Shown piece after piece: positions 854 to 59,879 of a DNA stretch of 64,000 nt. How positions within the stretch are numbered: the first letter of the stretch is position 1; the number at the start of each line of letters is the position of its first letter. The notes beneath the pieces are model-generated. The model saw nothing but the letters and a program-made list of their open reading frames with translations. It was not told the DNA's origin and searched no databases. Position numbers and translations under genes: made by a program. Source of the stretch: an uncultured beta proteobacterium (GTDB lineage Bacteria > Pseudomonadota > Gammaproteobacteria > Burkholderiales > SG8-41); the NCBI GenBank assembly GCA_963734595.1, contig CAVTHV010000037.1, positions 320,214 to 384,213 of the forward strand. The letters run 5' to 3'.

Positions 854-1612
854 TCAACTCGTCTGACTGGAAGCTGGAACCTTGGCAGCATCGGCCGGGG
901 GACAGGCCACTGCCTTGATCTCGGTACCGGGGAACTCGCGCTGCAATTCGGCGAGTTTGGCGACCATCGGGTCGCCCGGATCGCGCACCAGATACACGAT
1001 CTGTTTCAGGAAATTCTCGCGCCGTTCGACGATTGCCGAGCGCACACCCTTCCCGCGTATGCCGGCAAGAAAATTCTTCGCCGCATCCTCGCTCTTGAAT
1101 ATGCCGAGCGAAATCGCATTGCGCCACGGGGTCTGGTCCTGCACGGCAAAAAAATCGGTCACGCCCAACCCCTTCAGCTCGCGGATTTTCTTGTCGACTT
1201 CGGCCTTGTTCTTCAGCGGCGGGATGTAGACCCAGTAGCCGCCGACATCGGCGACCACGCGCTGCACCAGGACTTGCGGCAGATCGAGCCGGGCGATCGC
1301 AGCGTCGGCGCGCGCCACATCCGGGCCCGCCAGCAGCCCCCATTCGAGACAGGCCGCGGGCACGGGGGACGCCGCCGGGCCGGCAGTCTTGGCCGGCACG
1401 GGGGACGCCGGCGGCGCGACGGTCTTGGCCGGCGCGGCGGGCCTGGGCTTTTGGGAAGGTGCGCTGCCCGTCGCCCTGACGATCCTGATCTTCTCCGGAT
1501 TGATCTGCAGCAGCGCAATGCGGCCGGCGGCGCCATCCTGCTGCCGCGCCACCAAGGCATAGGCATAGAACACGGCGTTGGCCAGCACCAGCACCAGAAA
1601 CAGCAGCCTCAT
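854..1612 (-). CDS. SPOR domain-containing membrane protein
   Basis: 252-aa ORF with an N-terminal hydrophobic helix (MRLLFLVLVLANAVFYAYALV), a Pro/Ala-rich linker and a C-terminal SPOR-like segment (ISLGIFKSEDAAKNFLAGIRGKG). It lies directly downstream of coaX. Confidence 0.7.
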   Translation of the reverse strand: MRLLFLVLVLANAVFYAYALVARQQDGAAGRIALLQINPEKIRIVRATGSAPSQKPRPAAPAKTVAPPASPVPAKTAGPAASPVPAACLEWGLLAGPDVARADAAIARLDLPQVLVQRVVADVGGYWVYIPPLKNKAEVDKKIRELKGLGVTDFFAVQDQTPWRNAISLGIFKSEDAAKNFLAGIRGKGVRSAIVERRENFLKQIVYLVRDPGDPMVAKLAELQREFPGTEIKAVACPPADAAKVPASSQTS

Positions 1613-3841: not shown

Positions 3842-5671
<1,830 letters not shown>

Positions 5672-5720
5672 GCGTATTTTGGCTTCGACATAACGTTGCG
5701 CTGACCGCAACATTAGTCTG

Positions 5721-5750
5721 CGCCGCAACAAGCCTTGCGGCGTGTTGTGT
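5721..5750 (+). terminator. putative rho-independent terminator of glnS
   Basis: Stem cgccgcaa / ttgcggcg (5721-5728 / 5735-5742) with a 6-nt loop, followed by tgttgtgt. A second hairpin, gttgcg-ctgac-cgcaac, lies at 5695-5711. Confidence 0.5.
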
Positions 5751-5838
5751 GGCCGACCAGCATGATTCCCGCGACGGTGCGCCCGTGTTCAACCGCGCCG
5801 TGACGCTGCGCGACTCCTGGGTCAAACACAACGCCTGA
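5749..5838 (+). pseudogene. relic of a second, diverged glnS 3' end (last ~29 codons only)
   Basis: Encodes VADQHDSRDGAPVFNRAVTLRDSWVKHNA*, compared with the intact glnS end VADLRDSRAGVPVFNRAVTLRDSWTKPAGQP*. There is no upstream coding continuation. Confidence 0.6.
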
Positions 5839-6251
5839 TCGCGTGCGCGGCGCCGCCGGCCGCACGCAGAACGCGGGCCTTTGGGAAACCACTCGGCTTG
5901 CACTTTGTGGCCTGGTATCGAAAATTCAAGTTGCGGGTCCAACGGTGTCTGCCCGGCCACCACGGCCATGTCGAGCTCGCACCCCATATATTGGACAGGC
6001 CTGCGCGTCTGATGCAAATCCACCCTCGGGTGGTTTTGGTTGTGGCATTATGTACCTGGCGTCCTGACCCGATAGCCCACACCCGCAACGACGCAGCCGT
6101 GCGTCGACGCGAACATGAGAGAACGGCCTCCGGCGACAGCCGGCCGTACCGCAGCTCCGGGCATTTGCAGGCGCAATCCCACAACCGGGAGAAATTCTGA
6201 TGCCGCCACTTCTGATGCCACCTTTAGGTCGTCGTCGACCTGCTGCGCAAT

Positions 6252-7100
6252 GTGGTGGATATCCTGCCGGTCGGCGTCTGGATCCTGGACGAGACCGGAA
6301 AAATCCTCTATGGCAATTCCGCCGGCCATCGCATCTGGGCCGGTGCGCGCTACGTCGGCGTCGAACAATACGGGGAGTACAAAGGCTGGTGGGTCGCCAC
6401 CGGCAAGCGCATCGAGCCGGAAGAGTGGGCCGCGGCGCGCGCCATCAGGACCGGGGAAACCTCGATCGACGAAGAAGTGGAAATCGAGTGCTTCGACGGC
6501 ACGCGCAAGATCATTCTCAACTCCGCGATGCCGATCCGCGACGAGGACGACAACATCGTCGGCGCGGTCATCGTCAACCACGACATCACCGAGCGCAAAC
6601 GCTTCGAGGAACGGTTGCGGGAAATGACCGAGCGGGATCCTCTCACCAACACCTACAACCGGCGGCACCTCTACGCCATCCTGGAGAGAGAGAGCGAGCG
6701 GGCGCGCCGTTACGGCACCGCGCTGTCGGTCGTCATGTTCGACATCGACCATTTCAAGACGGTCAACGACACGCACGGCCACCTGGAAGGCGACCGCGTG
6801 CTGGTCCGGATCGCGGAGATCGTGCAGCAGGAACTGCGCAGCGTCGACCTGCTGGCCCGTTACGGCGGAGAGGAATTTCTGATCGTTGCGCCCGGCATCG
6901 ACCGCCCGCGTGCCGTCGTGCTGGCGGAACGCCTGAGAACCCTTATCGCCGAGGCGGACTTCGACCCCGTCCCGCAGATTACCTGCAGTTTCGGCGTGCA
7001 TCAGTTCGACGGCGAGGATACGGATTCCATTTTCCGTTACGTCGACGATCTGCTGTACAAGGCCAAGCAGCAGGGGCGCAATTGCGTCGTCACGGAATAG
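6252..7100 (+). CDS. PAS domain-containing diguanylate cyclase (GGDEF)
   Basis: N-terminal PAS-like region (VVDILPVGVWILDETGKILYGN...AVIVNHDITERKRFEE), then a GGDEF domain (DPLTNTYNRRHL...MFDIDHFKTVNDTHGH..GD...RYGGEEFLIV). The start is GTG. An in-frame TAG at 6226-6228 limits upstream extension. Confidence 0.85.
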   Translation: MVDILPVGVWILDETGKILYGNSAGHRIWAGARYVGVEQYGEYKGWWVATGKRIEPEEWAAARAIRTGETSIDEEVEIECFDGTRKIILNSAMPIRDEDDNIVGAVIVNHDITERKRFEERLREMTERDPLTNTYNRRHLYAILERESERARRYGTALSVVMFDIDHFKTVNDTHGHLEGDRVLVRIAEIVQQELRSVDLLARYGGEEFLIVAPGIDRPRAVVLAERLRTLIAEADFDPVPQITCSFGVHQFDGEDTDSIFRYVDDLLYKAKQQGRNCVVTE

Positions 7101-7112
7101 TCTTCCGCCGTA

Positions 7113-9783
7113 TCATCGCGTGCAACGCCGCACCCACCATTTGCGGCCTTCCTCCAGCACCAGCATGGCGGCGGCGAATGGCAGCATAAAGAGCCACACG
7201 TCCAGCGCGATCGGCGCTGTGCCGAACGCCGCGTTGCCGGGAGCCGTGTAGACGATCGCGAGGATCAGCGCGAGCTCCGCCAAAATTCCAAATAGAATCA
7301 ATGCATTATATTTCAGCGCCGCAGAGAATAGGCTTTCCCGCGGATCGCGGCACAGGACCACATTCACCACCTGCATCACGATGATGGCGGCCAGGCATGC
7401 CGTCGTCGCCTGCAGGTAAAGCGGATCGCCGCCTGCCAGCGCTTCGCCGTAGCGCCAGCCGCCATCGCCCAGCACGAAAAAGAATGCCGCCATCGCCGCC
7501 GCCGCTTCCAGCATGCCGAGCCACAGATAGGCGCGCGCCATCAGCGGCCAGTTCATCAGCCGCTCGTCGCGGCGGCGCGGCGGCTGCCGCATGATGTCCG
7601 GCGCCGGCTTTTCCGCGCCCAGCCCGAGCGCCGGCAGCATATCGGTGCCGAGATCGACGGCGAGGATCTGGATGATGGTCAGCGGCAGCGGAATGCGCAG
7701 CAGCACGAATGCCAGGTACGGCACGATCTCCGGGATGTTCGAGGTCAGGATGTAGGTGAGGAACTTGCGGATGTTCTGGAACACCGCCCGCCCCTCCTCG
7801 ATCGCGGCGACGATCGAGGCGAAATTGTCATCGAGCAGCACCATGTCGGCCGCGCCGCGCGCGACGTCGGTCCCCACCACGCCCATCGCGATGCCGATGT
7901 CGGCGCGCCGCAACGCCGGCGCGTCATTCACGCCGTCACCGGTGACGGCCACCACGTGGCCCTTGCGCTTCAACGCCTCGACGATGCGCATTTTCTGATC
8001 GGCGGTCACCCGCGCGAACAGGATTTCTTCGGCGTCGAGCGCAAGCTGCAGCTGCGTGACCGTGAGCCGCGACAGCGTCTCGCCGACGATCACCACGGGT
8101 GCCGTTGCGAGCCCGATGTCGCGCGCCACCGCGCGCGCGGTGTGCGGATGATCGCCGGTGACCATGATCACGCGGATGCCCGCGGCGCGGCAGGTCGCGA
8201 TGGCCTGCGGCACTTCCGGCCGCGGCGGATCGTGCAGCCCGACGAGCCCCGCGAGCGTGAGCGATGTCTCCCACTGTTCACGCGGCACGCCGGCATCGAG
8301 CGTGCGGTACGCGAGCGCGAGCACGCGCAGGCCGCGCTCGGCCATCTCCTCCTGCGCCGCGAGAAACTCCTGCATCAGCGCTTCGCTCATCGCAACGCTG
8401 CCGTTCTGCGCCGCGAGCACCTGCGCGCACAGCGGCAGCACCTGTTCGACCGCCCCCTTGCAGTACAGCACGCGGCCCGCCGGCCCTTCGTGCACGGTGG
8501 ACATGCGCTTGCGGTCGGCGTCGAACGGCAGCTCGTCGCAGGGCGGTACGGGCGCGCGCCCGCCGAGGCCGCGTTCGGCCATCCCGACCAGCGCGACTTC
8601 CATCGGATCACCGAGCAGCACCGGGACGCCGTTGCGCGCGACTTCGCGCAGGCTGTGGCAGTGGCGTGCAACTTCGAAGAACGGCGCATGGCCTGCCGCA
8701 TCCGCCGGCGTCGAGCGTCGCGAGTTCGCGCGTGGTGCCGGCAAAATGCACGCTCACCGCCTGCATGCGGTTCTCGGTGAGCGTGCCGGTCTTGTCGGTG
8801 ACGATGACGGTCGCCGCGCCCAGCGCCTCCGCCGCCGGCAGGTGCCGGATCAGCGCATTGCGTTTCGCCATGCGCTGCGTCGCCATCGCCAGCGCCAGCG
8901 TCACCGTCGGCAGCAGGCCCTCCGGCACGTTGGCGACGATGATGCCGATGGCGAACAGGAAGTTCGCCCAGAAACCGAGGCCGAGCATCTGCCCGATCGC
9001 GAAAAACACCACGCCCAGCACGGCGGCGAGCAGCGCGATCAGCCTTGAGAGCCGCACGATTTCCTGCTGCAACGGCGATGGCGGCGCGACGGCAGTCTGC
9101 GTCAGATGCGCAATTTTGCCGAACTCCGTGTGCATGCCGGTCGCGAACACCAGCGCCGTGGCCGCGCCCGACACCACCGACGTGCCCGCGAGCAGCACGT
9201 TGCGGCTCCTGAGCAGGTCGTCCTCTTCGACCGCATCGGCGATGCGCGCCTTCGGCAGCGACTCGCCGGTGACGGTCGCGATGTTGACGCGCACGCCGTG
9301 GCCTTCGACCAGCCGGCAATCGGCAGGCACGTCGTCGCCTTCCTGCAGCAGGATCACGTCTCCCGGGACGAGCATCCCGGTCTCGAGCTGCACGGCAACC
9401 CCGTCGCGGCGCGCCGTCACCGCGTGCGGCAGCAGCGCCTTCAGCGCCGCCACCGCGCGCTCGGCGCGGTACTCCTGCCAGAACGCGAACGCGCCGTTCA
9501 CCACCACCACGCCGATGATCGCCCAGCCCAGCGTGGCCATGCCCTGTCCGGGCCCGTACGCCTCGGCGATGAAAGCGAGCCCCGCCGCGACCAGCAGGAT
9601 CAGCGCGAAGAAATGCGTGAACTGCCGCGCGCCCTTGAGCCACAGCGGCTCGCGCGCGATCTCCTCCACGCGATTCGGTCCGTACTCGGCGAGCCGCCGC
9701 GCGGCCTCGGCGGCGGCAAGCCCCTCGCGCGCGCTGTGCAGGCTGGCGAAAGCTTGGTCGACTGAAAGACGGGTGATGCGCAT
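7113..9783 (-). pseudogene. cation-transporting P-type ATPase (P2/P3-like), one frameshift near 8703
   Basis: The N-terminal frame (8608..9783) carries TGES (VTGESLP) and the phosphorylation motif DKTGTLT. The C-terminal frame (7113..8744) carries VTGDHPHTA, GDGVNDAPAL and C-terminal TM helices. The junction reads gacgccggcGGatgcg, and removing one G gives LDAGDAAGH. Confidence 0.85.
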
Positions 9784-42179: not shown

Positions 42180-45100
42180 CGCTCGATTTCGTCCGCCGCG
42201 CCGGCCTGCCGCCGCGCTAGCCATTTTCGCGACCCGACCAGAGCCCAAGACCCAGGGCGGCGCCATCGTCATCCGCGGCGCGCGCCAGAACAATCTCAAG
42301 AACCTGACGCTGGAACTGCCGCACAACGCACTCACCGTGGTGACGGGCGTGTCCGGCAGCGGCAAGTCGTCGCTGGTGTTCGACACGCTCTACGCGGAGG
42401 GCCAGCGCCGCTACGTCGAGACCTTCTCGCCGTACGCGCGCCAGTTCCTCGACCGCCAGGACCGGCCGCAGGTGGACAGCATCGACGGCATCCCGCCGGC
42501 GATCGCCATCGACCAGACCAATCCGGTGCGCACCTCACGTTCGACGGTCGGCACCATGACCGAGCTCAACGATCACCTGAAGCTGTTGTATGCGCGCGCG
42601 ACGCAACTGTATTGCCGCAGTTGTGGTGCGCCGGTGCGGCGCGACACGCCGCAAAGCATCGTGGACGACGTGGTGCGGCGCGCGCGCGACGCCGGCGATC
42701 CGCGCCTCGTCATCGCTTTCCCCGTCGAGGTCCCGAAAAATTTCGGCCTCGCGGAAATCAAGCAACTGCTCGCAGCACAGGGCTACACGCGCTTTCACAG
42801 CGAATCGCCGCAGCGCTGCGAAGTCATCCAGGACCGGTTGCGCGCCGGCAGCGCCGAACGCGCGCGCCTGTCGGAAGCCGTGGAAGCGGCGCTCAAGGTC
42901 GGACAAGGACGCATCAACGTGTATCCGCAAGCCGAAGGCGCGGAACCTCATCCCTCATCCCTCATCCCTCATCCCTCGCCGTGGAAATACTCCACGGCGC
43001 TGCACTGCGCCGACTGCGACATCCATTACCAGGACCCGCTGCCCAGCCTGTTCTCCTTCAACTCGCCGATGGGCGCGTGCGACACCTGCCGCGGCTTCGG
43101 CCGCGTGATCGGCGTCGATTTCGGGCTGGTGGTGCCCGATGCGTCTCTGACGCTGCGCGGCGGCGCGGTGCGGCCGTGGCAGACGCCGAGCTTCAGGGAG
43201 TGCCAGGACGACCTGGTGAAATACGCGAAGAAGCGCGGCATGCCGCTGGACACGCCTTGGCGCGAGCTGAGCGAGGCGCAGCGGCGCTGGGTGCTGGAAG
43301 GCGAACCCGAGTGGGTGAACTGGAAGCAGTCCTGGCCCGGCATCTGGTACGGCGTGCGGCGCTTTTTCAAGTGGCTGGAGACCAAGGCCTACAAGATGCA
43401 CATCCGCGTGCTGCTGTCGAAGTACCGCGCCTATACCGCGTGCACCGACTGCAACGGCGCGCGGCTCAAACCCGCCGCACTGCTGTGGCGGCTGGGGACG
43501 CTGGACAATGCGCGTAATGCGCTGGGGTCGCGCCCGCGCTTCCGGCCGCAGGGCGTGACGGTTTCCGATGCGGTGCTGGCGCAACTGCCGGGACTCAATC
43601 TGCACGAGCTGATGCTGCTGCCGCTCACCGACGTGCGGCGTTTGTTCGACGAGCTGCAACTGCCGCGACCGCTCGACGAAGCGACCGAACTGCTGGTGGG
43701 CGAAATCCGCACCCGGCTCGCCTATCTCGACCAGGTCGGCCTCGGTTATCTCAACCTCGACCGCCAGTCGCGCACGCTCTCCGGCGGCGAAGTGCAGCGC
43801 ATCAACCTCACCACCGCGCTCGGCACGTCGCTGGTCAACACGCTGTTCGTGCTCGACGAGCCGTCGATCGGGCTGCATCCGCGCGACATGGGACGCGTGA
43901 TCGAAGTGATGCAGCGGCTGCGCGACGCCGGCAACACGCTGGTGGTGGTGGAACACGATCCGCAGATCATGCTCGCCGCCGACCGCATCCTCGACATGGG
44001 ACCGGGGCCGGGCGAACATGGCGGCGAAGTCGTGTTTTTCGGCTCGCCAAAATCAATAATAAAAACAAGGGGTTCCATCACTGGCCGCTACCTGGGCGGG
44101 GAACTGCATGCGGATCGCGGCGTCGCGCCCGTCACGCCCGCGAAGAACGCGCCGTGCCTGCATCTGTCCGGCGCAACGGAACACAATCTCAAGAACATCA
44201 GCGTGCGTTTTCCGCTGCGCCACATGATCTGCGTCACCGGCGTATCGGGCTCGGGCAAATCGACGCTGGTGCAGGACGTGCTGCACGCAGCGCTGTTGCA
44301 GGCCAAAGGCAAACCCACCGAGACGCCGGGCCGCCATCGCGCGCTCGCCGGGCACGAGCACATCACCGACGTGGTGCTGGTCGACCAGACGCCGATCGGG
44401 CGCACCACGCGTTCCAATCCCGCGAGCTACGTCGGCGCTTACGACGCGATCCGCAACCTGTATGCACGCACGCCGCTCGCGCGCGAGCGCGGCTACACCA
44501 CCGGCACCTTCAGCTTCAATTCCGGCAACGGCCGCTGTCCGGCCTGCGGCGGCAACGGCTTCGAGCATGTCGAGATGCAGTTCCTGTCCGACGTCTACCT
44601 GCGCTGCCCCGATTGCGACGGCCGGCGCTACCGCGCGGAAATTCTCGAAGTCACGCTGCGCGGAAAATCCATCGCCGACGTGCTCGACCTCACGGTGTCC
44701 GAAGCCTGCCGCTTCTTCGCCGATGAACCGGGTGTGCTCGCCACACTCGCCCCGCTGTCCGACGTCGGTCTCGATTACCTGAAGCTCGGCCAGCCGGTGC
44801 CCACGCTGTCGGGCGGAGAAGCGCAGCGTCTGAAACTTGGCGGGTCATTTGGCAGAACATGCTGCGACCCAGCGTCCGCGCAAGGGCAATGCGGCATCCG
44901 CCGCGCACACGCTGTTCCTGTTCGACGAGCCCACCACCGGCCTGCATTTCGAAGACGTGGCGCGGCTGCTGCAGGCCTTCCGCCGCCTGATCGCCGCCGG
45001 CCATTCGCTGGTGATCATCGAACACAACCTCGACGTGATCCGCGCCAGCGACTGGATCATCGACCTCGGGCCCGAAGGCGGCGACGCCGGCGGCGAGATC

Positions 45101-54966: not shown

Positions 54967-55965
54967 TCAATTCGTGGAGTGATACTCCGTCACGCGCCGG
55001 ACTTCATTTTTCGAGCCGAGAATCACGCCGACGCGCTGGTGCAGGGCCTCGGGCCGGATATCGAGGATGCGCTGGTGGCCGTTGGTCGCCGCCCCGCCCG
55101 CCTGCTCGACGATGAACGACATCGGGTTGGCTTCATACATCAGGCGCAGCCTGCCGTCCTTGTGCCGCGCATCGCGCGGATACATGAATATGCCGCCGCG
55201 TGACAGTATGCGATAAACGTCGGCGACCATGGACGCCACCCAGCGCATATTGAAGTCCTTGCCGCGCGGGCCGTTCTTGCCCGCCAGACATTCATCGATG
55301 TAGCGCTTGACCGGCGGTTCCCAGTTGCGCATGTTCGACACGTTGATCGCAAACTCCCCGGTGTCCTCGGGGATCTCGATTTTCGGCTGCGTCAACACCC
55401 AGCTGCCCAGTTCGCGGTCCAGCGTGAAGCCGGCCACGCCATTGCCGACGGTCAGCACGAGGAGGGTCGACGGGCCGTAAACGGCAAAGCCGGCCGCGAC
55501 CTGGCTGGTTCCGGGCTGCAGGAAGGCTTTCTCGTCCGGCTCCTCGACTCCCTCCGGGCAGCGCAGCACCGAGAAGATGGTGCCGATCGACACATTGACA
55601 TCGATATTGGAAGAGCCGTCGAGCGGATCGAACAGCAGCAGAAAGCCGCCGCGCGGATAAGCGCGGGGTATCTGGTGCGGCTTCTCCATCTCTTCCGACG
55701 CCATCGCCGCGAGATGTCCGCCCCATTCGTTCGCCTCCAGCAGCACTTCGTTGGAAATCACGTCGAGTTTTTTCTGCGTCTCGCCCTGCACGTTCTCGGT
55801 CCCGGCGCTGCCCAGCACGTTGGCCAGCGCACCTTTGCTCACTGCGTGGCCGATCGCCTTGCAGGCGCGGGCGACGACTTCGATCAACAGGCGCAATTCC
55901 GCTGATACTTTATTGTGGTTGCGCTGCTGTTCGACGAGATATTGGGTGAGCGTGACGCGACGCAT
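54967..55965 (-). CDS. fbp: class 1 fructose-1,6-bisphosphatase
   Basis: [14 protein letters not shown]..., [45 protein letters not shown]. Intact 332 aa. Confidence 0.92.
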
Positions 55966-56130
55966 GGTTCCTCCACTGGGTTCGATGATCTTTTGGACCG
56001 CAATTATCCGCTATACTGAAAGCCAGCTCAACGACCGACGGCCAAGCGTTGCGCCCGCAACCGGAAGGATGCGAGGCGCACGGCGCGGTCATATCGCGGT
56101 TCATCGCGTCTTCCGGAGGGGCCATCCCGT

Positions 56131-56765
56131 ATGAAGACTCCGCAAAATCGATGGCTTGCGCTGCTTGCGCTGCTGGGATGCTTTGTCGCGCCCTCGAGCG
56201 CCCAGGCCCAGATCCAGAAAACGCCGCCGCCGGTGTATGCCAAGGCGACTTTCGCCGGCGGCTGTTTCTGGTGCATGGAGCCGCCGTTCGACAAGCTGCC
56301 CGGCGTCATCTCGACCACCGCCGGCTACACGGGCGGACACACCAGAAACCCGACCTATGAGCAGGTGTCGAGCGGACAAACCGGACACGCCGAAGCCGTA
56401 GAGGTCGAGTATGACCCGAAACGGATAAGCTACGAGAAACTGCTGGACGTATTCTGGCACAACATCGATCCGACACAGCGCGATGGCCAGTTCTGCGATC
56501 ACGGCTCGCAGTACCGCACTGCGATCTTCTATCACGATGACGAGCAGAAACGACTCGCCGAGGCGTCGAAAGCCGCGCTCGTCAAGAACCAAACCGTTCA
56601 AGGGCAGAAATCGTGACCGAGATTACGCGCGCGACCGAGTTTTATCGCGCCGAGGATTACCACCAGGATTTTTACCGGAAGAATCCGATCCGCTACAAGT
56701 TCTACCGGACCGGTTGCGGCCGCGACGCCCGCCTCAAGGAACTGTGGGGCAAGAGCGCGGAGTAG
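56131..56765 (+). pseudogene. msrA: periplasmic-type peptide-methionine (S)-S-oxide reductase MsrA with signal peptide, two closely spaced frameshifts (about 56588 and 56607)
   Basis: [26 protein letters not shown] signal peptide, [27 protein letters not shown] in frame 1. KPFKG is in frame 2, and [52 protein letters not shown] is in frame 3. Confidence 0.8.
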
Positions 56766-56913: not shown

Positions 56914-58037
56914 GTGAAGCAGTTGTTGTTGCTCGGCGGCGGGCACAGCCAGGTCGAAGTGATTCGCCGGCTCGGGCTGCAGCCGCTGCACGACGTCAGG
57001 ACCACGCTGGTCAGCCCGGACCGCTACACGCCCTATTCCGGCATGCTGCCGGGATTCGTCGCCGGACACTACGGATTTCACGATTGCCATATCGATCTCG
57101 AACGCCTGTGCGACGCCTCAGGTGTCGAGTTCCGCCGCTCCACGGCGATCGGCATCGACCCCGCTGCAAATCGTGTGAACTGCGAAGACGGCAGCGTGCT
57201 CGATTACGACGCACTGTCGATCGATATCGGCTCGACACCCGAGACCGATTCCGTTCCCGGCGCGCTCGACCATGCGATCCGCGTCAAGCCGGTCGCCGGC
57301 TTCATCGGCATCTGGGACCGCATCATCGATACTGCAGCCGGCGGCAGCCGCTGCGCATTGCGGTGGTGGGCGGCGGCGCAGGCGGCGTGGAACTGGCGCT
57401 GGCGATGCACTACCGGTTGTGCGCGCAGAACGGAACCGCCGAATTTCATTTGCTCGCGGATACCGCGACGATATTGCCCGGCTTCCCGGCCCGGGTGGGG
57501 CGCATATTCGAACGCGTGCTTAACGAACGCGGTATCGCGATCCATATCCACAGCAGGGTCATCCGGCTTGGGCATGGCGTGTTGTATCGCGATACCGGCG
57601 GTCCATTGCATGCCGATCACATCATCTGGGCGACAGCAGCGGGCGCGCCACGCTGGCTTGCCGCGAGCGGCATCAAGACCGATGCGCGCGGTTTTATCGC
57701 GGTGAACGATGCGCTGCAGTCGGTATCGCATCCCCGCATATTTGCAGCCGGCGACATCGCCAGCATGGTCAGCCATGCGCGCCCGAAATCCGGCGTCTAT
57801 GCAGTACGCCAGGGACCGCCGCTCTCGGAAAATCTGCGGCGAGCGCTCGGCAGCCGACCACTCGCCGGCTACTCGCCACAAAAAAAGGCCCTTGCCTTGA
57901 TCAGCACCGGCGACAAATATGCGGTTGCTGCGTACGGCACGTTTGCGCTCGAAGGCAAATGGGTCTGGCAATGGAAAGACCACATCGACCGCAGGTTCAT
58001 GACGAAATACAACAGCCCGCCGCGCAATTCGACATAG
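56914..58037 (+). pseudogene. FAD-dependent pyridine nucleotide-disulfide oxidoreductase (NDH-2-like), one frameshift near 57345
   Basis: VKQLLLLGGGHSQVEV (FAD GxGxxG motif) in the 56914 frame. PLRIAVVGGGAGGVELALAM...IFAAGDIAS...GVYAVRQGP lies in the 56907..58037 frame. Confidence 0.75.
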
Positions 58038-58050
58038 ATTTTGCGTATTC

Positions 58051-58107
58051 GTAAGACTCACGTAAGTCGCGAGTAAGTCTTGTGAAAGCTACGTAAATCT
58101 GCGTAAA
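58051..58107 (+). repeat. six helically phased direct repeats GTAA(G/A) (one degenerate) upstream of the repeat-protein gene
   Basis: GTAAG at 58051, 58062 and 58073. Degenerate GTGAAA at 58082. GTAAA at 58093 and 58103. Spacing is 10-11 bp. The array ends 85 bp before ATG 58192. Confidence 0.45.
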
Positions 58108-58191
58108 AGCCATCGCCGCTCATTCCTGTTGTCCGTATGCTCTCCATCACTGATGCCGGTAACCGCCGCATCATTTATCAAGGAGAACGAC

Positions 58192-58575
58192 ATGATCCGC
58201 AAAACCATACTCGCAATTGCGCTCGGTACCGTATTCGCGGCCCCGATGTACAACGTCTACGCCGAAGGTGAAGACGAGAAGAAAGCCGACCTGATCGTCG
58301 CCGAAGGTGAAGACGAGAAGAAAGCCGACCTGATCGTTGCCGAAGGTGAAGACGAGAAGAAAGCCGACCTGATCGTTGCCGAAGGTGAAGATGAGAAGAA
58401 AGCCGACCTGATCGTTGCCGAAGGCGAAGACGAGAAGAAAGCCGACCTGATCGTTGCCGAAGGTGAAGACGAGAAGAAAGCCGACCTGATCGTTGCCGAA
58501 GGCGAAGACGAGAAGAAGGCCGACCTGATCGTTGCCGAAGGTGAAGACGAGAAGAAGGCCGACCTGATCAGCTGA
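58192..58575 (+). CDS. secreted repeat protein: signal peptide plus eight tandem 13-aa units AEGEDEKKADLIV
   Basis: AAGGAGA SD at 58180-58186, 5 nt before the ATG. MIRKTILAIALGTVFAAPMYNVYA is a signal peptide. Eight in-frame repeats differ only by synonymous third-position changes. A strong terminator follows. Confidence 0.7.
   Translation: MIRKTILAIALGTVFAAPMYNVYAEGEDEKKADLIVAEGEDEKKADLIVAEGEDEKKADLIVAEGEDEKKADLIVAEGEDEKKADLIVAEGEDEKKADLIVAEGEDEKKADLIVAEGEDEKKADLIS
58261..58572 (+). repeat. 39-bp tandem repeat x8 (coding)
   Basis: gccgaaggtgaagacgagaagaaagccgacctgatcgtt repeated head-to-tail with no spacers. Variants are ggt/ggc, gac/gat, aaa/aag and gtc/gtt. Confidence 0.95.
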
Positions 58576-58620
58576 TCACCGGCAAAAAAGCCGACATCAA
58601 GCGAACAATCTTGGTGGGAC

Positions 58621-58660
58621 GGGCGCACCGGGTCGAATGACCGGTGCGCCCGTGTTTTTA
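58621..58660 (+). terminator. rho-independent terminator of the repeat-protein gene
   Basis: 11-bp stem gggcgcaccgg / ccggtgcgccc (58621-58631 / 58641-58651) followed by gtgttttta. Confidence 0.7.
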
Positions 58661-58679
58661 TAGGTACCGGAAAGCGGGG

Positions 58680-59879
58680 TCAGCTGATGATCACGCGTGC
58701 ATACCTGCGCTTGCCAACCTGCAGCACAGCAGAGTCTCCCTTGCCCAGCCTGAATTCGCGGTCACTGACTTTTTCGCCGTTGAGCTTCACTCCGCCCTGT
58801 TCGATCATGCGCAGCGCTTCGGATGTGCTCGCGGTCAAGCCGGCCTGCTTGAGCACCTGCGCGATGACGAGACCGTCAACGCCGGACGTCAAATTCACTT
58901 CGGGAATGGTTTCGGGCAGTTCACCCTGCCTGAAGCGCGCCTCGAAATCGGCAAGCGCCTCCTGCGCGGCCGCCTTGCTGTGGAAACGCGCAACGATTTC
59001 CTGGGCAAACGCAACCTTGATGTCGCGGGGATTGCGCCCTTGCCCGGTCTCCTGTTTCCATTTGCGAATGGTTTCAAGCGGCTCGAACGACAACAGCTCG
59101 ATGTAGCGCCACATCAATTCGTCCGAAACCGACATCAGCTTGCCGAAGATCTCCTTCGGGCTTTCGTTGATGCCGACATAATTGCCGAGCGACTTCGACA
59201 TCTTGTTGACGCCGTCCAGCCCGATCAGAAGCGGCATCGTTAGAATGCACTGCGGCGGCTGGCCGAAATGCTTCTGCAGTTCGCGCCCCATCAGCAGGTT
59301 GAATTTCTGATCGGTGCCGCCGAGCTCGACGTCGCATTTGAGCACCACCGAATCATAGCCCTGCACCAGCGGATAAAGAAACTCGTGGATCGCGATCGGC
59401 TGGTTGCCCTTGTAGCGTTTGCTGAAGTCGTCGCGCTCGAGCATGCGCGCCACGGTGTGGGTCGCGGCGAGCCGGATCATGTCGGCGGCGTTCATCTTGG
59501 CCATCCACGATGAATTGAACACGACCTCGGTTTTGTCACGGTCGAGAATCTTGAACACCTGGTCGGTGTACGTGCGGGCATTTTGCGCAACCTCTTCGCC
59601 TGACAACGGCGGGCGCGTCGTATTTTTCCCGGTGGGGTCGCCGATCATGCCGGTGAAATCGCCGACCAGGAACAGGATGTGATGGCCGAGATCCTGAAAC
59701 TGCCTCAACTTGTTGAGCAGCACCGTGTGCCCGAGATGCAGATCGGGTGCGGTGGGATCGAAGCCGGCCTTGACGCGCAACGTCCGTCCCGCTTTGAGCC
59801 GGTTCTTGAGCTCGTCTTCGATCAGCAGTTCGTCGCAACCGCGTTTGATGATTTCAAGTTGTGTGTCTAGCGCTACCAT
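58680..59879 (-). CDS. tyrS: tyrosine--tRNA ligase (type 2, TyrZ-like)
   Basis: [14 protein letters not shown]..., HIGH region ([10 protein letters not shown]), KMSKS ([10 protein letters not shown]) and a C-terminal S4 domain. I chose ATG 59879, which is preceded by AGGAGA, inside the longer track ORF. Confidence 0.9.

What the first reader, a model, noticed from the sequence alone, without database searches (positions are those of the whole stretch)
58192..58575. Small secreted protein made of eight perfect 13-aa repeats (AEGEDEKKADLIV) with only synonymous variation between units
The gene has a strong SD, a typical Sec signal peptide (cleavage predicted after VYA) and a strong terminator. 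The whole mature region is eight head-to-tail copies of a highly charged 13-mer. Every nucleotide difference among the 39-nt units (ggt/ggc, gac/gat, aaa/aag, gtc/gtt) is a silent third-position change, apart from the final codon of unit 8. That argues that the peptide sequence itself is under selection and that the frame is real. I do not recognise the repeat. Possibilities include a periplasmic cation-binding or buffering protein, a polyprotein-like precursor releasing multiple identical peptides, or a surface or matrix component. The region also looks less GC-rich than its surroundings.
Basis: partly seen in the sequence, partly recalled or inferred. Interest (0 to 1): 0.65.

Follow-up and report, generated by a model that had tools for sequence, protein, structure and literature searches.

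The report
Sensor-linked secreted acidic repeat protein
This is a real gene for a small, exported, structureless protein made of eight identical 13-residue units; it belongs to an undescribed family from uncultured soil and groundwater Betaproteobacteria that usually sits next to its own two-component sensor, which points to an inducible role in the cell envelope, most plausibly cation buffering.

Summary
ORF 58192-58575 (+) encodes a Sec signal peptide followed by 8 copies of AEGEDEKKADLIV, and every difference between units is silent. A relative with about 97% nucleotide identity (L018) encodes the identical 127-aa, 8-unit protein despite 17 substitutions in the gene. All 17 are silent in the sense frame only.

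The protein matches no Pfam, NCBIfam or PDB entry and no paper. It does belong to a family of at least 202 clusters, all from metagenomes or Burkholderiales/Betaproteobacteria MAGs. Members share one design: a signal peptide, then 2-9 whole units of acidic head, polar spacer and L-I/V-A tail, ending at a unit boundary. Cys, His and Met are essentially absent. AlphaFold predicts disorder.

In 12 loci the gene lies directly downstream of an OmpR-type regulator and HAMP kinase closest to the CzcRS/CopRS/CusRS subfamily. It has its own promoter with GTAAG-N6-GTAAG boxes, the geometry of published CzcR/CopR sites. The window's lineage lacks the sensor at this site but keeps an invariant six-half-site array (58051-58107).

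Best reading: an inducible periplasmic disordered multivalent protein, the output of that sensor and analogous to SilE/PcoE, but with carboxylate chemistry suited to hard cations. The biochemical function is inferred, not shown.

The parts
58051..58107 (+). Array of six direct half-sites: GTAAG at 58051, 58062 and 58073; GAAAG at 58084; GTAAA at 58093 and 58103. Spacing is 9-11 bp. This is the putative binding array for an OmpR-family (CzcR/CopR-like) response regulator.
   Evidence: GTAAR-N6-GTAAR occurs only here in 64 kb (2 hits against 0.03 expected). The half-sites are invariant and the spacers variable across window, L012, L009, L005 and L001. The same box lies upstream of family genes in nearly all loci. 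Published CzcR and CopR sites share the 5-mer-N6-GTAAT geometry (PMC11195947, PMC13209446).
58136..58141 (+). Putative -10 hexamer TATGCT. It would place the transcription start near 58148 and the proximal half-site near -43.
   Evidence: CGTATGCT is invariant in five orthologous upstream regions. No -35 match was found and the sigma-70 consensus scan found nothing, as expected for an activator-dependent promoter. This is inference only.
58151..58173 (+). 5'-leader stem-loop: UGAUGCCGG-uaa-CCGCCGCAUCA.
   Evidence: Leader folds have z -3.4 (window) and -3.55 (L001). L005 keeps the pairing through a U-A to U-G change. Relatives carry a different hairpin (GUUGGC...GCCAAC) at the same place. RNAalifold found no consensus structure.
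58180..58186 (+). Shine-Dalgarno sequence AAGGAGA.
   Evidence: Read directly from the sequence. It is invariant in the orthologues.
58192..58575 (+). Coding sequence, 127 aa plus stop codon.
   Evidence: The identical protein is encoded by the diverged contig L018, where 17 substitutions are all silent.
58192..58263 (+). Sec-type signal peptide of 24 aa, with the predicted cut after V-Y-A.
   Evidence: Read directly from the sequence. The family-wide signal peptide ends in [AV][YF]A in most of 146 members. Across signal peptide plus first head, pN/pS is 0-0.29.
58264..58572 (+). Mature region: eight units of EGEDEKKADLIVA, the last ending LIS. Net charge is about -3 per unit and the fraction of charged residues is 0.54. 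It is predicted to be disordered.
   Evidence: AlphaFold gives mean pLDDT 46 with no secondary structure. A distant member with a 26-sequence alignment gives pLDDT 53 with none either.
58619..58661 (+). Intrinsic terminator: a 15-16 bp GC-rich stem, GAAU loop and T run. It lies between this gene and the convergent tyrS.
   Evidence: dG -44.7 kcal/mol, z -3.95; coordinates.

Best explanation
The gene encodes an exported, intrinsically disordered protein made only of tandem modules. Each module has an acidic head (E-G-E/D-D/E-E-K-K), a short polar spacer and a three-residue hydrophobic tail (L-I/V-A). The explanation has three layers with separate confidences.

(a) Real, selected, secreted modular protein: about 0.95, shown.

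(b) Regulated output of an OmpR-family two-component system of the CzcRS/CopRS/CusRS branch: about 0.75, inferred from linkage and conserved boxes. The regulator would bind the GTAAG-N6-GTAAG array and switch on a monocistronic gene that looks built for high expression, with a strong ribosome-binding site, a leader hairpin at the 5' end and a strong terminator. In the window's lineage the sensor genes are no longer adjacent, but the boxes are conserved, so a cognate regulator should be encoded elsewhere in the genome.

(c) What it does in the periplasm: about 0.35, inferred. The carboxylate-rich heads would act as a multivalent, low-affinity, high-capacity binder or buffer for hard cations (Ca, Mg, Mn, Fe, Al or lanthanide type). 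Capacity would scale with unit number, and the hydrophobic tails would drive collapse or association once charge is neutralised. This is the logic of the SilE/PcoE 'molecular sponge' with different ligand chemistry.
For: Layer (a):
- The ORF, ribosome-binding site, signal peptide and terminator are present.
- The window and L018 differ by 17 substitutions in the gene, all silent in the sense frame only. Both have 8 units.
- The window and L009 show pS 0.19 and pN 0.
- Variation pooled over arrays from 12 loci is silent-biased, 32 against 16 where 21% of sites are synonymous, P about 1e-11.
- The family has at least 202 clusters with one architecture.

Layer (b):
- An orthologous kinase (74-100% identical to the reference, L004 itself included) lies immediately upstream in 12 loci, in at least three different flanking contexts.
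- The regulator scores 265 bits on the heavy-metal regulator model TIGR01387 against a cut-off of 279.
- Boxes lie upstream of the repeat gene, of a second paralogue (L021), of a co-located disordered lipoprotein gene (L011, L013) and of the regulator gene itself.
- The box is unique in the window and its half-sites are invariant.
- The 374 nt from 57940 to 58313 are identical between window and L018, where about 10 differences would be expected at the regional rate.
- The box geometry matches published CzcR/CopR sites.

Layer (c):
- No efflux pump, oxidase or other effector gene accompanies the sensor, so the disordered proteins are the only visible local outputs.
- Function scaling with copy number fits the 2-9 unit range.
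- SilE is a periplasmic disordered protein with repeated ligand motifs and its own promoter. Its gene sits next to silRS: the operon is written sil-PGABFCRSE (PMC5008109).
- Both AlphaFold runs predict disorder.
Against: - No experiment or expression data were available.
- The lysines are as conserved as the acidic residues. The family median net charge is only about -2 per unit and K makes up 14% of mature residues. A pure cation sponge would not need this.
- The invariant G, KK and L-I-A look like a recognised linear motif rather than bulk charge.
- The kinase sensor domain has no conserved His or Cys, and both the kinase and the regulator score below the heavy-metal family cut-offs. The signal therefore need not be a metal.
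- The window itself has no adjacent sensor genes.
- The regulator-box assignment is by analogy. A second PmrA/QseB-like system in L003 also has such boxes nearby.
Confidence: 0.4

Rival explanations
1. Stress protectant or holdase. The protein would be a disordered polyampholyte whose hydrophobic tails bind exposed hydrophobic patches of damaged envelope proteins or membranes, while the charged heads keep them soluble. It would play a Spy/CpxP/ZraP-like or LEA/dehydrin-like role and be induced by the sensor system.
For: Both K and E/D are conserved, the fraction of charged residues is about 0.47, and short hydrophobic anchors recur regularly. Disorder is predicted. The gene is inducible and linked to a sensor, like cpxP, spy and zraP (established knowledge). 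Periplasmic msrA genes are neighbours in most loci.
Against: There is no sequence or fold similarity to Spy or CpxP (PDB E-values of 0.5 or worse; no Pfam hit). The hydrophobic patch is only 2-3 residues long. The msrA genes carry no regulator box.
Confidence: 0.2
2. Periplasmic accessory regulator of the adjacent kinase. The protein would bind the arginine-rich sensor domain and feed back on signalling, in the manner of CpxP-CpxA, ZraP-ZraS or FeuN-FeuQ.
For: The gene sits immediately next to the kinase in 12 loci and appears to be induced by the cognate regulator. The sensor domain has 10 invariant Arg and no metal-type ligands. The head and tail motifs are conserved, as expected for a recognised ligand.
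Against: Variable copy number (2-9) and rapid spacer turnover are unusual for a 1:1 regulator. No other local output is visible, so such a system would regulate only its own regulator. The window's lineage keeps the gene without the adjacent kinase. Sensor-domain divergence (62-94% identity) broadly tracks overall kinase divergence, being slightly higher than in the cytoplasmic part, and shows no pherotype-like diversification alongside the repeat spacers.
Confidence: 0.13
3. Polyprotein precursor. The protein would be cut at every L-I-(V)-A|E-G junction, or after KK, releasing many identical 13-19-residue peptides.
For: The mature protein is a whole number of units that starts right after the signal-peptidase site and ends at a unit boundary. 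Of 146 members, 132 end in A, S or G, mostly within the L-[IVAT]-[ASG] tail. Junctions obey the -3/-1 rule, like V-Y-A|E. Units are homogenised and copy number varies, as in the yeast alpha-factor precursor and fungal Kex2-processed repeat proteins (established knowledge).
Against: No dedicated protease, modifying enzyme or exporter is conserved nearby; the M23 peptidase belongs to the unrelated tyrS-M23-anmK synteny. Internal junctions lack the long hydrophobic core that signal peptidase I needs. Highly charged peptides of about 1.4 kDa would not readily cross the outer membrane (established knowledge). The variable part looks like a low-complexity linker.
Confidence: 0.07
4. Periplasmic polyanion or osmolyte. 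The protein would be a proteinaceous counterpart of osmoregulated periplasmic glucans, setting the Donnan potential or the osmotic strength of the periplasm.
For: The window protein carries a net charge of about -24. It is disordered, soluble, exported and inducible.
Against: Most family members are only weakly anionic, with a median of -8 per protein, and lysines are conserved. Specific motif conservation would not be needed for this role.
Confidence: 0.07
5. Not a protein-coding feature of the + strand. The region would be a non-coding tandem repeat or a product of the antisense ORF 58257-58628.
For: The antisense ORF is open across the array and its translation is also perfectly repetitive. 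Within-array silent changes are mostly silent in that frame too.
Against: Between window and L018, 17 of 17 substitutions are silent in the sense frame, while 2 change the antisense product and 15-17 change the products of the other four frames. The ribosome-binding site, conserved signal peptide, promoter boxes and terminator all serve the + strand. The antisense start lies inside the terminator stem. The openness of the shadow frame follows from the codon composition.
Confidence: 0.01

Closest known systems
SilE / PcoE (periplasmic 'molecular sponge' of the sil and pco metal-resistance determinants)
   Same: Both are small Sec-exported proteins that are disordered on their own and built from repeated ligand motifs. 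Each is transcribed from its own promoter. The gene lies next to a CusRS-branch two-component system: the operon is written sil-PGABFCRSE, placing silE beside silRS (PMC5008109). Here the order is regulator, kinase, repeat gene.
   Different: There is no sequence similarity. SilE and PcoE bind Ag/Cu through conserved His and Met; this family has His 0.2%, Met 0.4% and Cys 0%. The units here are exact tandem repeats with variable copy number. No efflux pump or oxidase genes accompany the module. No helix is predicted.
CzcRS / CopRS / CusRS / HprRS two-component systems (NCBIfam TIGR01387 and TIGR01386)
   Same: These are the best-scoring families for the linked regulator and kinase. The regulator boxes share the 5-mer-N6-GTAA(T/G) geometry. 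A box upstream of the regulator gene suggests autoregulation.
   Different: Both proteins score below the curated cut-offs (265 against 279 and 197 against 292). The sensor domain lacks conserved His, Cys and Met-type ligands. The half-site is GTAAG rather than GTAAT, often arranged as arrays of 4-6 direct repeats.
CpxP / Spy / ZraP and FeuN (small periplasmic proteins induced by, and acting on, their own envelope-stress two-component system)
   Same: They are small exported proteins whose genes sit beside the sensor genes and are among their strongest targets (established knowledge).
   Different: Those proteins are folded helical proteins of the LTXXQ family. There is no Pfam or PDB similarity here, and this family is repetitive and predicted to be disordered.
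Repeat-peptide precursors (yeast alpha-factor prepro-protein, fungal Kex2-processed repeat proteins)
   Same: Both have a signal peptide followed by head-to-tail identical units, variable copy number, and conserved unit junctions.
   Different: Those precursors are eukaryotic and are cut at dibasic sites by a known protease. No processing enzyme or evidence of cleavage is seen here.

Membership tests
SilE/PcoE family | Detectable sequence homology to SilE or PcoE | tested here: not met
   No Pfam, NCBIfam or PDB match for the window protein.
SilE/PcoE family | Conserved His/Met metal-binding motifs (MxxHxxxxxHxxM and HxxMxxxHxxM) | tested here: not met
   Mature regions of 146 members contain His 0.2%, Met 0.4% and Cys 0%. 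Motif definitions are from PMC5008109.
SilE/PcoE family | Periplasmic location, and disorder in the free form | tested here: met
   The signal peptide is read directly from the sequence. AlphaFold gives pLDDT 46 and 53 with no secondary structure. This is prediction only.
SilE/PcoE family | Own promoter, next to a CusRS-branch two-component system, and metal-induced | tested here: inconclusive
   Adjacency and a separate promoter are met in 12 related loci but not in the window. Induction cannot be tested here.
Heavy-metal two-component systems (TIGR01387 regulator, TIGR01386 kinase) | Score at or above the curated family cut-off | tested here: not met
   The regulator scores 265.3 against 279.2 and the kinase 197.5 against 292.55. 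These are nevertheless the top hits.
Heavy-metal two-component systems (TIGR01387 regulator, TIGR01386 kinase) | Regulator box of the type GAAAC-N6-GTAAT or CTGACA-N5-GTAAT | tested here: inconclusive
   Boxes here are GTAAG-N6-GTAAG direct repeats and TTAC-N7-GTAAG inverted repeats. The geometry is the same and the half-site differs by one base. Binding was not tested.
Heavy-metal two-component systems (TIGR01387 regulator, TIGR01386 kinase) | Periplasmic sensor domain with conserved soft-metal ligands (His, Met or Cys) | tested here: not met
   Seven aligned kinases show no invariant His or Cys in residues 41-165, one invariant Met, and 10 invariant Arg.
Sec-exported proteins (signal peptidase I substrates) | Basic n-region, hydrophobic h-region of 10 or more residues, small residues at -3 and -1 | tested here: met
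   The sequence reads MIRK / TILAIALGTVFAA / PMYNVYA|E. Most of the 146 family members end the signal peptide in [AV][YF]A. No predictor was run.
CpxP/Spy/ZraP (LTXXQ) family | LTXXQ-motif helical fold or a Pfam match | tested here: not met
   No Pfam hit. Spy chains appear only at E-values of 0.5 or worse. No helices are predicted.
Multi-core peptide precursors (RiPP-like or polyprotein) | A conserved neighbouring maturation enzyme, protease or exporter | tested here: not met
   Only the regulator, the kinase, a second paralogue or a small lipoprotein are consistently adjacent.
Multi-core peptide precursors (RiPP-like or polyprotein) | Identical cores separated by conserved junctions, with release of the peptides | tested here: inconclusive
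   Whole-unit architecture and conserved junctions are present. Cleavage cannot be tested with these tools.

The most novel reading that the evidence does not exclude
The regulator, kinase and repeat gene form a self-contained peptide-signalling loop in a Gram-negative bacterium. The exported precursor would be cut at each L-I-A|E-G junction into many identical 13-19-residue peptides, or would present them multivalently. These would be sensed by the arginine-rich periplasmic domain of the adjacent kinase, and the regulator would in turn induce the precursor gene through the GTAAG boxes. That would be a Sec-dependent, multi-copy analogue of the Gram-positive comCDE and agr autoinduction circuits.
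Probability: 0.07. Interest if true: 0.9.

Novelty: new variant of a known kind. Interest (0 to 1): 0.6.

Why it matters
The finding defines a protein family with no annotation anywhere. It has at least 202 clusters and is confined so far to uncultured Burkholderiales/Betaproteobacteria. It also defines the family's regulatory module: a sensor kinase, a regulator, a recognisable DNA box, and one or two disordered exported proteins that appear to be the main local output.

If the cation-buffer reading is right, the 'disordered periplasmic sponge' principle known from silver and copper resistance (SilE/PcoE) would extend to carboxylate chemistry and hard cations in environmental bacteria. The perfectly modular units would make binding capacity tunable by copy number.

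If the motif instead turns out to be a ligand or a released peptide, it would be a new kind of envelope signalling.

In either case the system is compact enough (three genes and one promoter) to test directly by synthesis. The pair of strains with identical protein and 17 silent changes is an unusually clean demonstration of selection on a repeat peptide.

Tried and rejected
- Known families. Pfam and NCBIfam scans of the protein and a relative returned nothing. The PDB sequence search found nothing better than E = 0.2. Full-text searches for the unit and six family motifs returned 0 papers, as did a keyword search for acidic disordered periplasmic repeats linked to two-component systems.
- Known RNA element. 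Rfam at gathering thresholds over the whole window found nothing, and the permissive scan of 57950-58700 gave only sub-threshold noise. RNAalifold on the leaders of 13 loci gave no consensus structure.
- Amphipathic helix or any fold. Two AlphaFold runs predicted none, so no fold search was attempted.
- CpxR idea. The proximal GTAAA-N5-GTAAA is an exact CpxR-type box (from memory). However, CpxR is not among the 25 listed NCBIfam hits for the linked regulator, and the kinase scores only 112 bits on the CpxA model (cut-off 486). The idea was dropped in favour of the CzcR/CopR branch.
- Horizontal transfer as the cause of low GC. Rejected, because the drop is in GC2 and comes from the charged residues.
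- Antisense ORF as the real gene. Rejected.
- Functional link to the neighbouring M23 peptidase, anmK or tyrS. Rejected. That synteny persists in loci regardless of the module, and the module also occurs away from it.
- SD-sequestering helix (CUCUCC 58140-58145 pairing with GGAGA). Probably irrelevant, because it overlaps the putative -10 hexamer and would lie upstream of the transcript.
- Pherotype-like co-diversification of sensor domain and repeat spacer. Not seen.
- An early note equating the window with ENA contig_81779 was wrong and was corrected.
- The species-genome scan used one peptide pattern ([LI][IV]AEG[ED][DE]EK). Its count of 2 genomes is therefore a lower bound that misses members with QSD-type heads.
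Full report
**1.

The + strand ORF 58192-58575 encodes 127 aa. AAGGAGA lies at 58180-58186, followed by five bases and then the ATG. The N-terminus MIRK/TILAIALGTVFAA/PMYNVYA|E has the three regions of a Sec signal peptide. This is a direct reading; no predictor was available.

From 58261 to 58572 there are eight 39-nt units. TRF reports period 39, 7.9 copies, 97% matches and score 576, by far the strongest repeat in the window. Units 1-7 translate to AEGEDEKKADLIV and unit 8 ends LIS. The six internal differences fall at four distinct sites, all third-position and silent. Only 8.3 of 39 sites are synonymous, so four of four silent has P about 0.002.

The terminator at 58619-58661 is real: a 15-16 bp stem, a T run, dG -44.7 kcal/mol and z -3.95.

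The local GC dip (0.55 against 0.64) is mainly a consequence of the charged amino acids. GC2 is 0.27, and GC3 is 0.68 against about 0.80 in long ORFs. It is not evidence of foreign origin.

**2. Which strand, and is the peptide selected?**

The antisense ORF 58257-58628 is in the frame whose third codon positions coincide with the sense frame. Its translation (SAFFSSSPSATIR repeats) is equally invariant. Pooled over arrays from 15 loci, most between-unit changes are silent in both frames: 43 in both, 9 in the sense frame only, 4 in the antisense frame only, 10 in neither.

An independent comparison closes the gap. The only public contig read that carries the identical protein (L018, an 813-kb ENA contig) is not the window. 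It is a relative with about 97% nucleotide identity. It also has eight units. Within the gene the two sequences differ at 17 positions: 15 third positions and two CTG/TTG first positions. All 17 are silent in the sense frame. Two change the antisense product, and 15-17 change the products of the other four frames. For random placement P is about 5e-12.

The same few silent variants (GGT/GGC, AAA/AAG, GTT/GTC, GAC/GAT, CTG/TTG) are distributed differently over the units in the two strains. This indicates exchange within the array on top of purifying selection.

Further support comes from other orthologues:
- The window and L009 show pS 0.19 and pN 0.
- The window against L005 and L001 gives pN/pS 0.23-0.29.
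- Within-array variation pooled over the arrays of 12 loci is 32 silent against 16, with 21% of sites synonymous, P about 1e-11.

L009 has only three units. It is a 1.2-kb short-read contig, so collapse during assembly cannot be excluded.

**3. It belongs to an undescribed family**

No Pfam, NCBIfam or PDB match exists, and no paper contains the motifs.

Sequence searches nevertheless find relatives:
- 12 with the single sequence.
- 65 representatives at 50% identity with a first profile.
- At least 202 clusters at 90% identity with a second profile.

None has a Pfam domain or a meaningful name. The few from NCBI are 'MAG: Betaproteobacteria bacterium' or 'Burkholderiales bacterium'. A pattern-limited scan of 185,579 species genomes found two, both groundwater Betaproteobacteria MAGs. 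This is a lower bound. The window's TyrRS also has only such MAGs among its named best hits, at 76% identity or more.

All members share one design:
- A signal peptide ending in [AV][YF]A.
- Then 2-9 whole units (mode 3) of 12-24 residues (mode 14-15).
- Each unit has a head [E/Q/D][G/S][D/E][E/D][K/E][K/E], a polar and often Pro-rich spacer, and a tail K-P-[E/Q]-L-[I/V]-[A/S].
- The protein almost always stops exactly at a unit boundary. The last residue is A, S or G in 132 of 146 members.

Mature regions contain E 18%, K 14%, D 11% and P 9%, with Cys 0%, His 0.2% and Met 0.4%. The median net charge is -8 per protein. The window protein is the extreme of the family, with the shortest unit (13 residues, no Pro), nearly the most copies (8), and the most negative charge.

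The relatives therefore conserve the head and tail motifs rather than this particular 13-mer. The drift, however, is confined to the spacer.

Two AlphaFold runs gave pLDDT 46 and 53 with no secondary structure beyond the signal peptide. One used the window protein with 12 sequences, the other a distant member with 26 sequences. The mature protein is predicted to be disordered, and an amphipathic helix is not supported.

**4. Context and regulation**

In the window the gene stands alone between a pyridine-nucleotide-disulfide oxidoreductase gene and the convergent tyrS. An M23 peptidase gene and anmK lie beyond tyrS.

Related loci fall into three arrangements that share one feature:
- In L019, L020, L021 and L023 the order is msrA..., regulator, kinase, repeat gene, convergent tyrS, M23, anmK.
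- In L003, L004, L011, L013, L015 and L016 the same regulator, kinase and repeat gene sit in other neighbourhoods.
- In L010 and L022 the kinase again lies directly upstream.

Altogether 12 loci carry an orthologous kinase immediately upstream, 74-100% identical to the reference (L004 itself included). The lineage of the window (window, L018, L001, L005, L002/L014, L008) has other genes there instead.

The regulator is OmpR-type, and its best family is the heavy-metal regulator TIGR01387 (265 bits, cut-off 279). CusR and HprR are the next best. The kinase is HAMP-HisKA-HATPase, with best family TIGR01386 (197 bits, cut-off 292).

Upstream of the window gene lie six direct half-sites at 58051-58107: GTAAG three times, GAAAG once, GTAAA twice, at 9-11 bp spacing.
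- GTAAR-N6-GTAAR occurs nowhere else in the 64 kb (2 hits against 0.03 expected).
- The half-sites are invariant and the spacers variable in five orthologous regions whose coding pS reaches 0.48.
- Between window and L018 the entire stretch 57940-58313 is identical, where about 10 differences would be expected at the regional rate (my arithmetic).

In the kinase-linked loci the promoter has three parts in order: a distal GTAAG-N6-GTAAG; three TTAC half-sites 11 bp apart running into an inverted GTAAG (ATTACATGTTGGTAAG); and a conserved TATC(C/T)T.

The same boxes precede other genes:
- The regulator gene itself (L021, L023).
- A second family paralogue just upstream of the regulator in L021, with a four-box array.
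- An 82-aa disordered lipoprotein gene between the kinase and the repeat gene in L011 and L013.

Published sites for this regulator branch have the same geometry and nearly the same half-site: CzcR GAAAC-N6-GTAAT, CopR CTGACA-N5-GTAAT, with GTAAT as the shared half-site (PMC11195947 and PMC13209446).

I infer that the repeat gene is a direct, strongly activated target of this sensor system. I also infer that the window's lineage keeps a cognate regulator elsewhere, since the boxes would otherwise have decayed. Binding has not been tested. A PmrA/QseB-like system in L003 with similar boxes nearby is an alternative binder.

A putative -10 (TATGCT, 58136-58141) would place the proximal half-site near -43. 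It would also put a conserved stem-loop (58151-58173) at the very 5' end of the mRNA. That would suit a stabilising hairpin, but this is inference.

**5. How it most likely works**

The shown facts are these. The protein is exported, disordered and perfectly modular, and is under strong purifying selection. Copy number and spacer evolve quickly. The gene is linked to, and apparently induced by, a sensor system whose only visible local outputs are such disordered proteins. No efflux pump, oxidase or enzyme gene travels with the module.

A function that scales with the number of units fits best. The closest precedent is SilE/PcoE. SilE is a periplasmic disordered 'sponge' with repeated ligand motifs and its own promoter, and its gene lies beside silRS (PMC5008109).

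The ligand chemistry here is entirely different: carboxylates, with no His, Met or Cys. If the protein binds metal ions, they would be hard cations (Ca, Mg, Mn, Fe, Al or lanthanide type).

I put about 0.35 on this cation-buffer mechanism. Three things count against it:
- The lysines are as conserved as the acidic residues.
- Most members are only mildly anionic.
- The sensor domain has no metal-type ligands (ten invariant Arg, no invariant His or Cys).

The rivals are:
- A polyampholyte protectant or holdase (0.2).
- A feedback ligand of the kinase (0.13).
- A precursor cut into identical peptides (0.07).
- A periplasmic polyanion or osmolyte (0.07).

The whole-unit architecture, and junctions that mimic the signal-peptidase site (V-Y-A|E-G against L-I-A|E-G), keep the precursor idea alive. 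However, no protease or exporter is linked. The sensor domain also does not co-diversify with the spacer.

**6. Comparison, novelty and caveats**

The module works like SilE/PcoE with silRS in gene organisation and in the physical nature of the protein. It fails every sequence-level membership test for that family.

The sensor system is nearest to, but below the cut-offs of, the heavy-metal two-component families.

I rate the finding a new variant of a known kind, namely a sensor-controlled periplasmic disordered protein. It is carried by a protein family that is itself undescribed.

Caveats:
- All relatives come from metagenomes.
- Unit counts in short-read contigs are unreliable.
- The window and L018 carry different small indels in flanking genes. 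This suggests long-read assembly errors, but the repeat gene is intact and identical at protein level in both.
- No expression or biochemical data exist.

Noticed in passing
window 56131-56765 and 56914-58037: Two flanking genes are frameshifted in the window. The periplasmic msrA is split into ORFs 56131-56616 and 56613-56765 (extra C at 56589 and 56605 relative to L018). The Pyr_redox_2 gene changes frame at about 57336-57351 (extra AG at 57336-57337). L018 has these genes intact but has several 1-nt indels in tyrS. This looks like long-read indel error in both assemblies, or real pseudogenes.
   Followed up: partly
window 58257-58628 (- strand): A 123-aa antisense 'shadow' ORF runs through the array, in the frame whose third codon positions coincide with the sense frame. 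Its repeats (SAFFSSSPSATIR) are also perfect. It is a composition by-product, and the comparison with L018 rejects it as the coding frame.
   Followed up: yes
L021 4002-4435: A second paralogue of the repeat family (MKRKLVLALAVMSALGVASSGAFA|QSDESKEEKK...ELIG) lies just upstream of the regulator gene. It is preceded by four GTAAG half-sites at 11-bp spacing, so the sensor genes are flanked by family members on both sides.
   Followed up: partly
L011 1884-2132; L013 2558-2806: An 82-aa lipoprotein lies between the kinase and the repeat gene. It has a ...GLAAC|S lipobox and is rich in P, A, Q and E, so it is probably disordered. It has its own copy of the TTACATGTTGGTAAG box and is probably another member of the regulon.
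   Followed up: partly
L003 7446-7475 and 7820-7840; L017 2910-2925: Further GTAAG-N6-GTAAG boxes occur away from the repeat gene. In L003 they lie beside a second, PmrA/TctD/QseB-like two-component system (5253-7345, - strand) and upstream of short unannotated ORFs. It is unclear which regulator binds these.
   Followed up: partly
window 58151-58173; L003 about 1764-1785; L023 about 6941-6972: A stem-loop lies at the same place in the 5' leader but with different sequence in different lineages: GAUGCCGG...CCGCCGCAUC in the window group, and CCAACG / CGUUGGC / GCCAACG (three mutually complementary segments) in the kinase-linked group. It could be an mRNA-stabilising hairpin or a palindromic protein site. 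Fold statistics are significant only in the window group (z about -3.4 to -3.55).
   Followed up: partly
window 57940-58313 compared with L018: There are no differences over 374 nt (end of the upstream gene, the promoter, the leader, the signal peptide and unit 1) between two strains that differ by about 2.6% on average. This is followed by 17 silent differences within 245 nt of the array. The array therefore accumulates or reshuffles silent variation faster than its surroundings.
   Followed up: partly
window 1359-1437 and 42946-42977: There are two other small tandem repeats: a 36-nt unit in 2.2 copies, and CCTCATC in 4.6 copies. They were not examined.
   Followed up: no
window 54967-56616 and related loci: Two msrA (PMSR) genes, at least one with a signal peptide, together with an HTH_26 regulator, TPM-phosphatase genes or FBPase, recur beside the module in most loci. 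They carry no GTAAG box. A possible envelope oxidative-stress neighbourhood was not tested.
   Followed up: no
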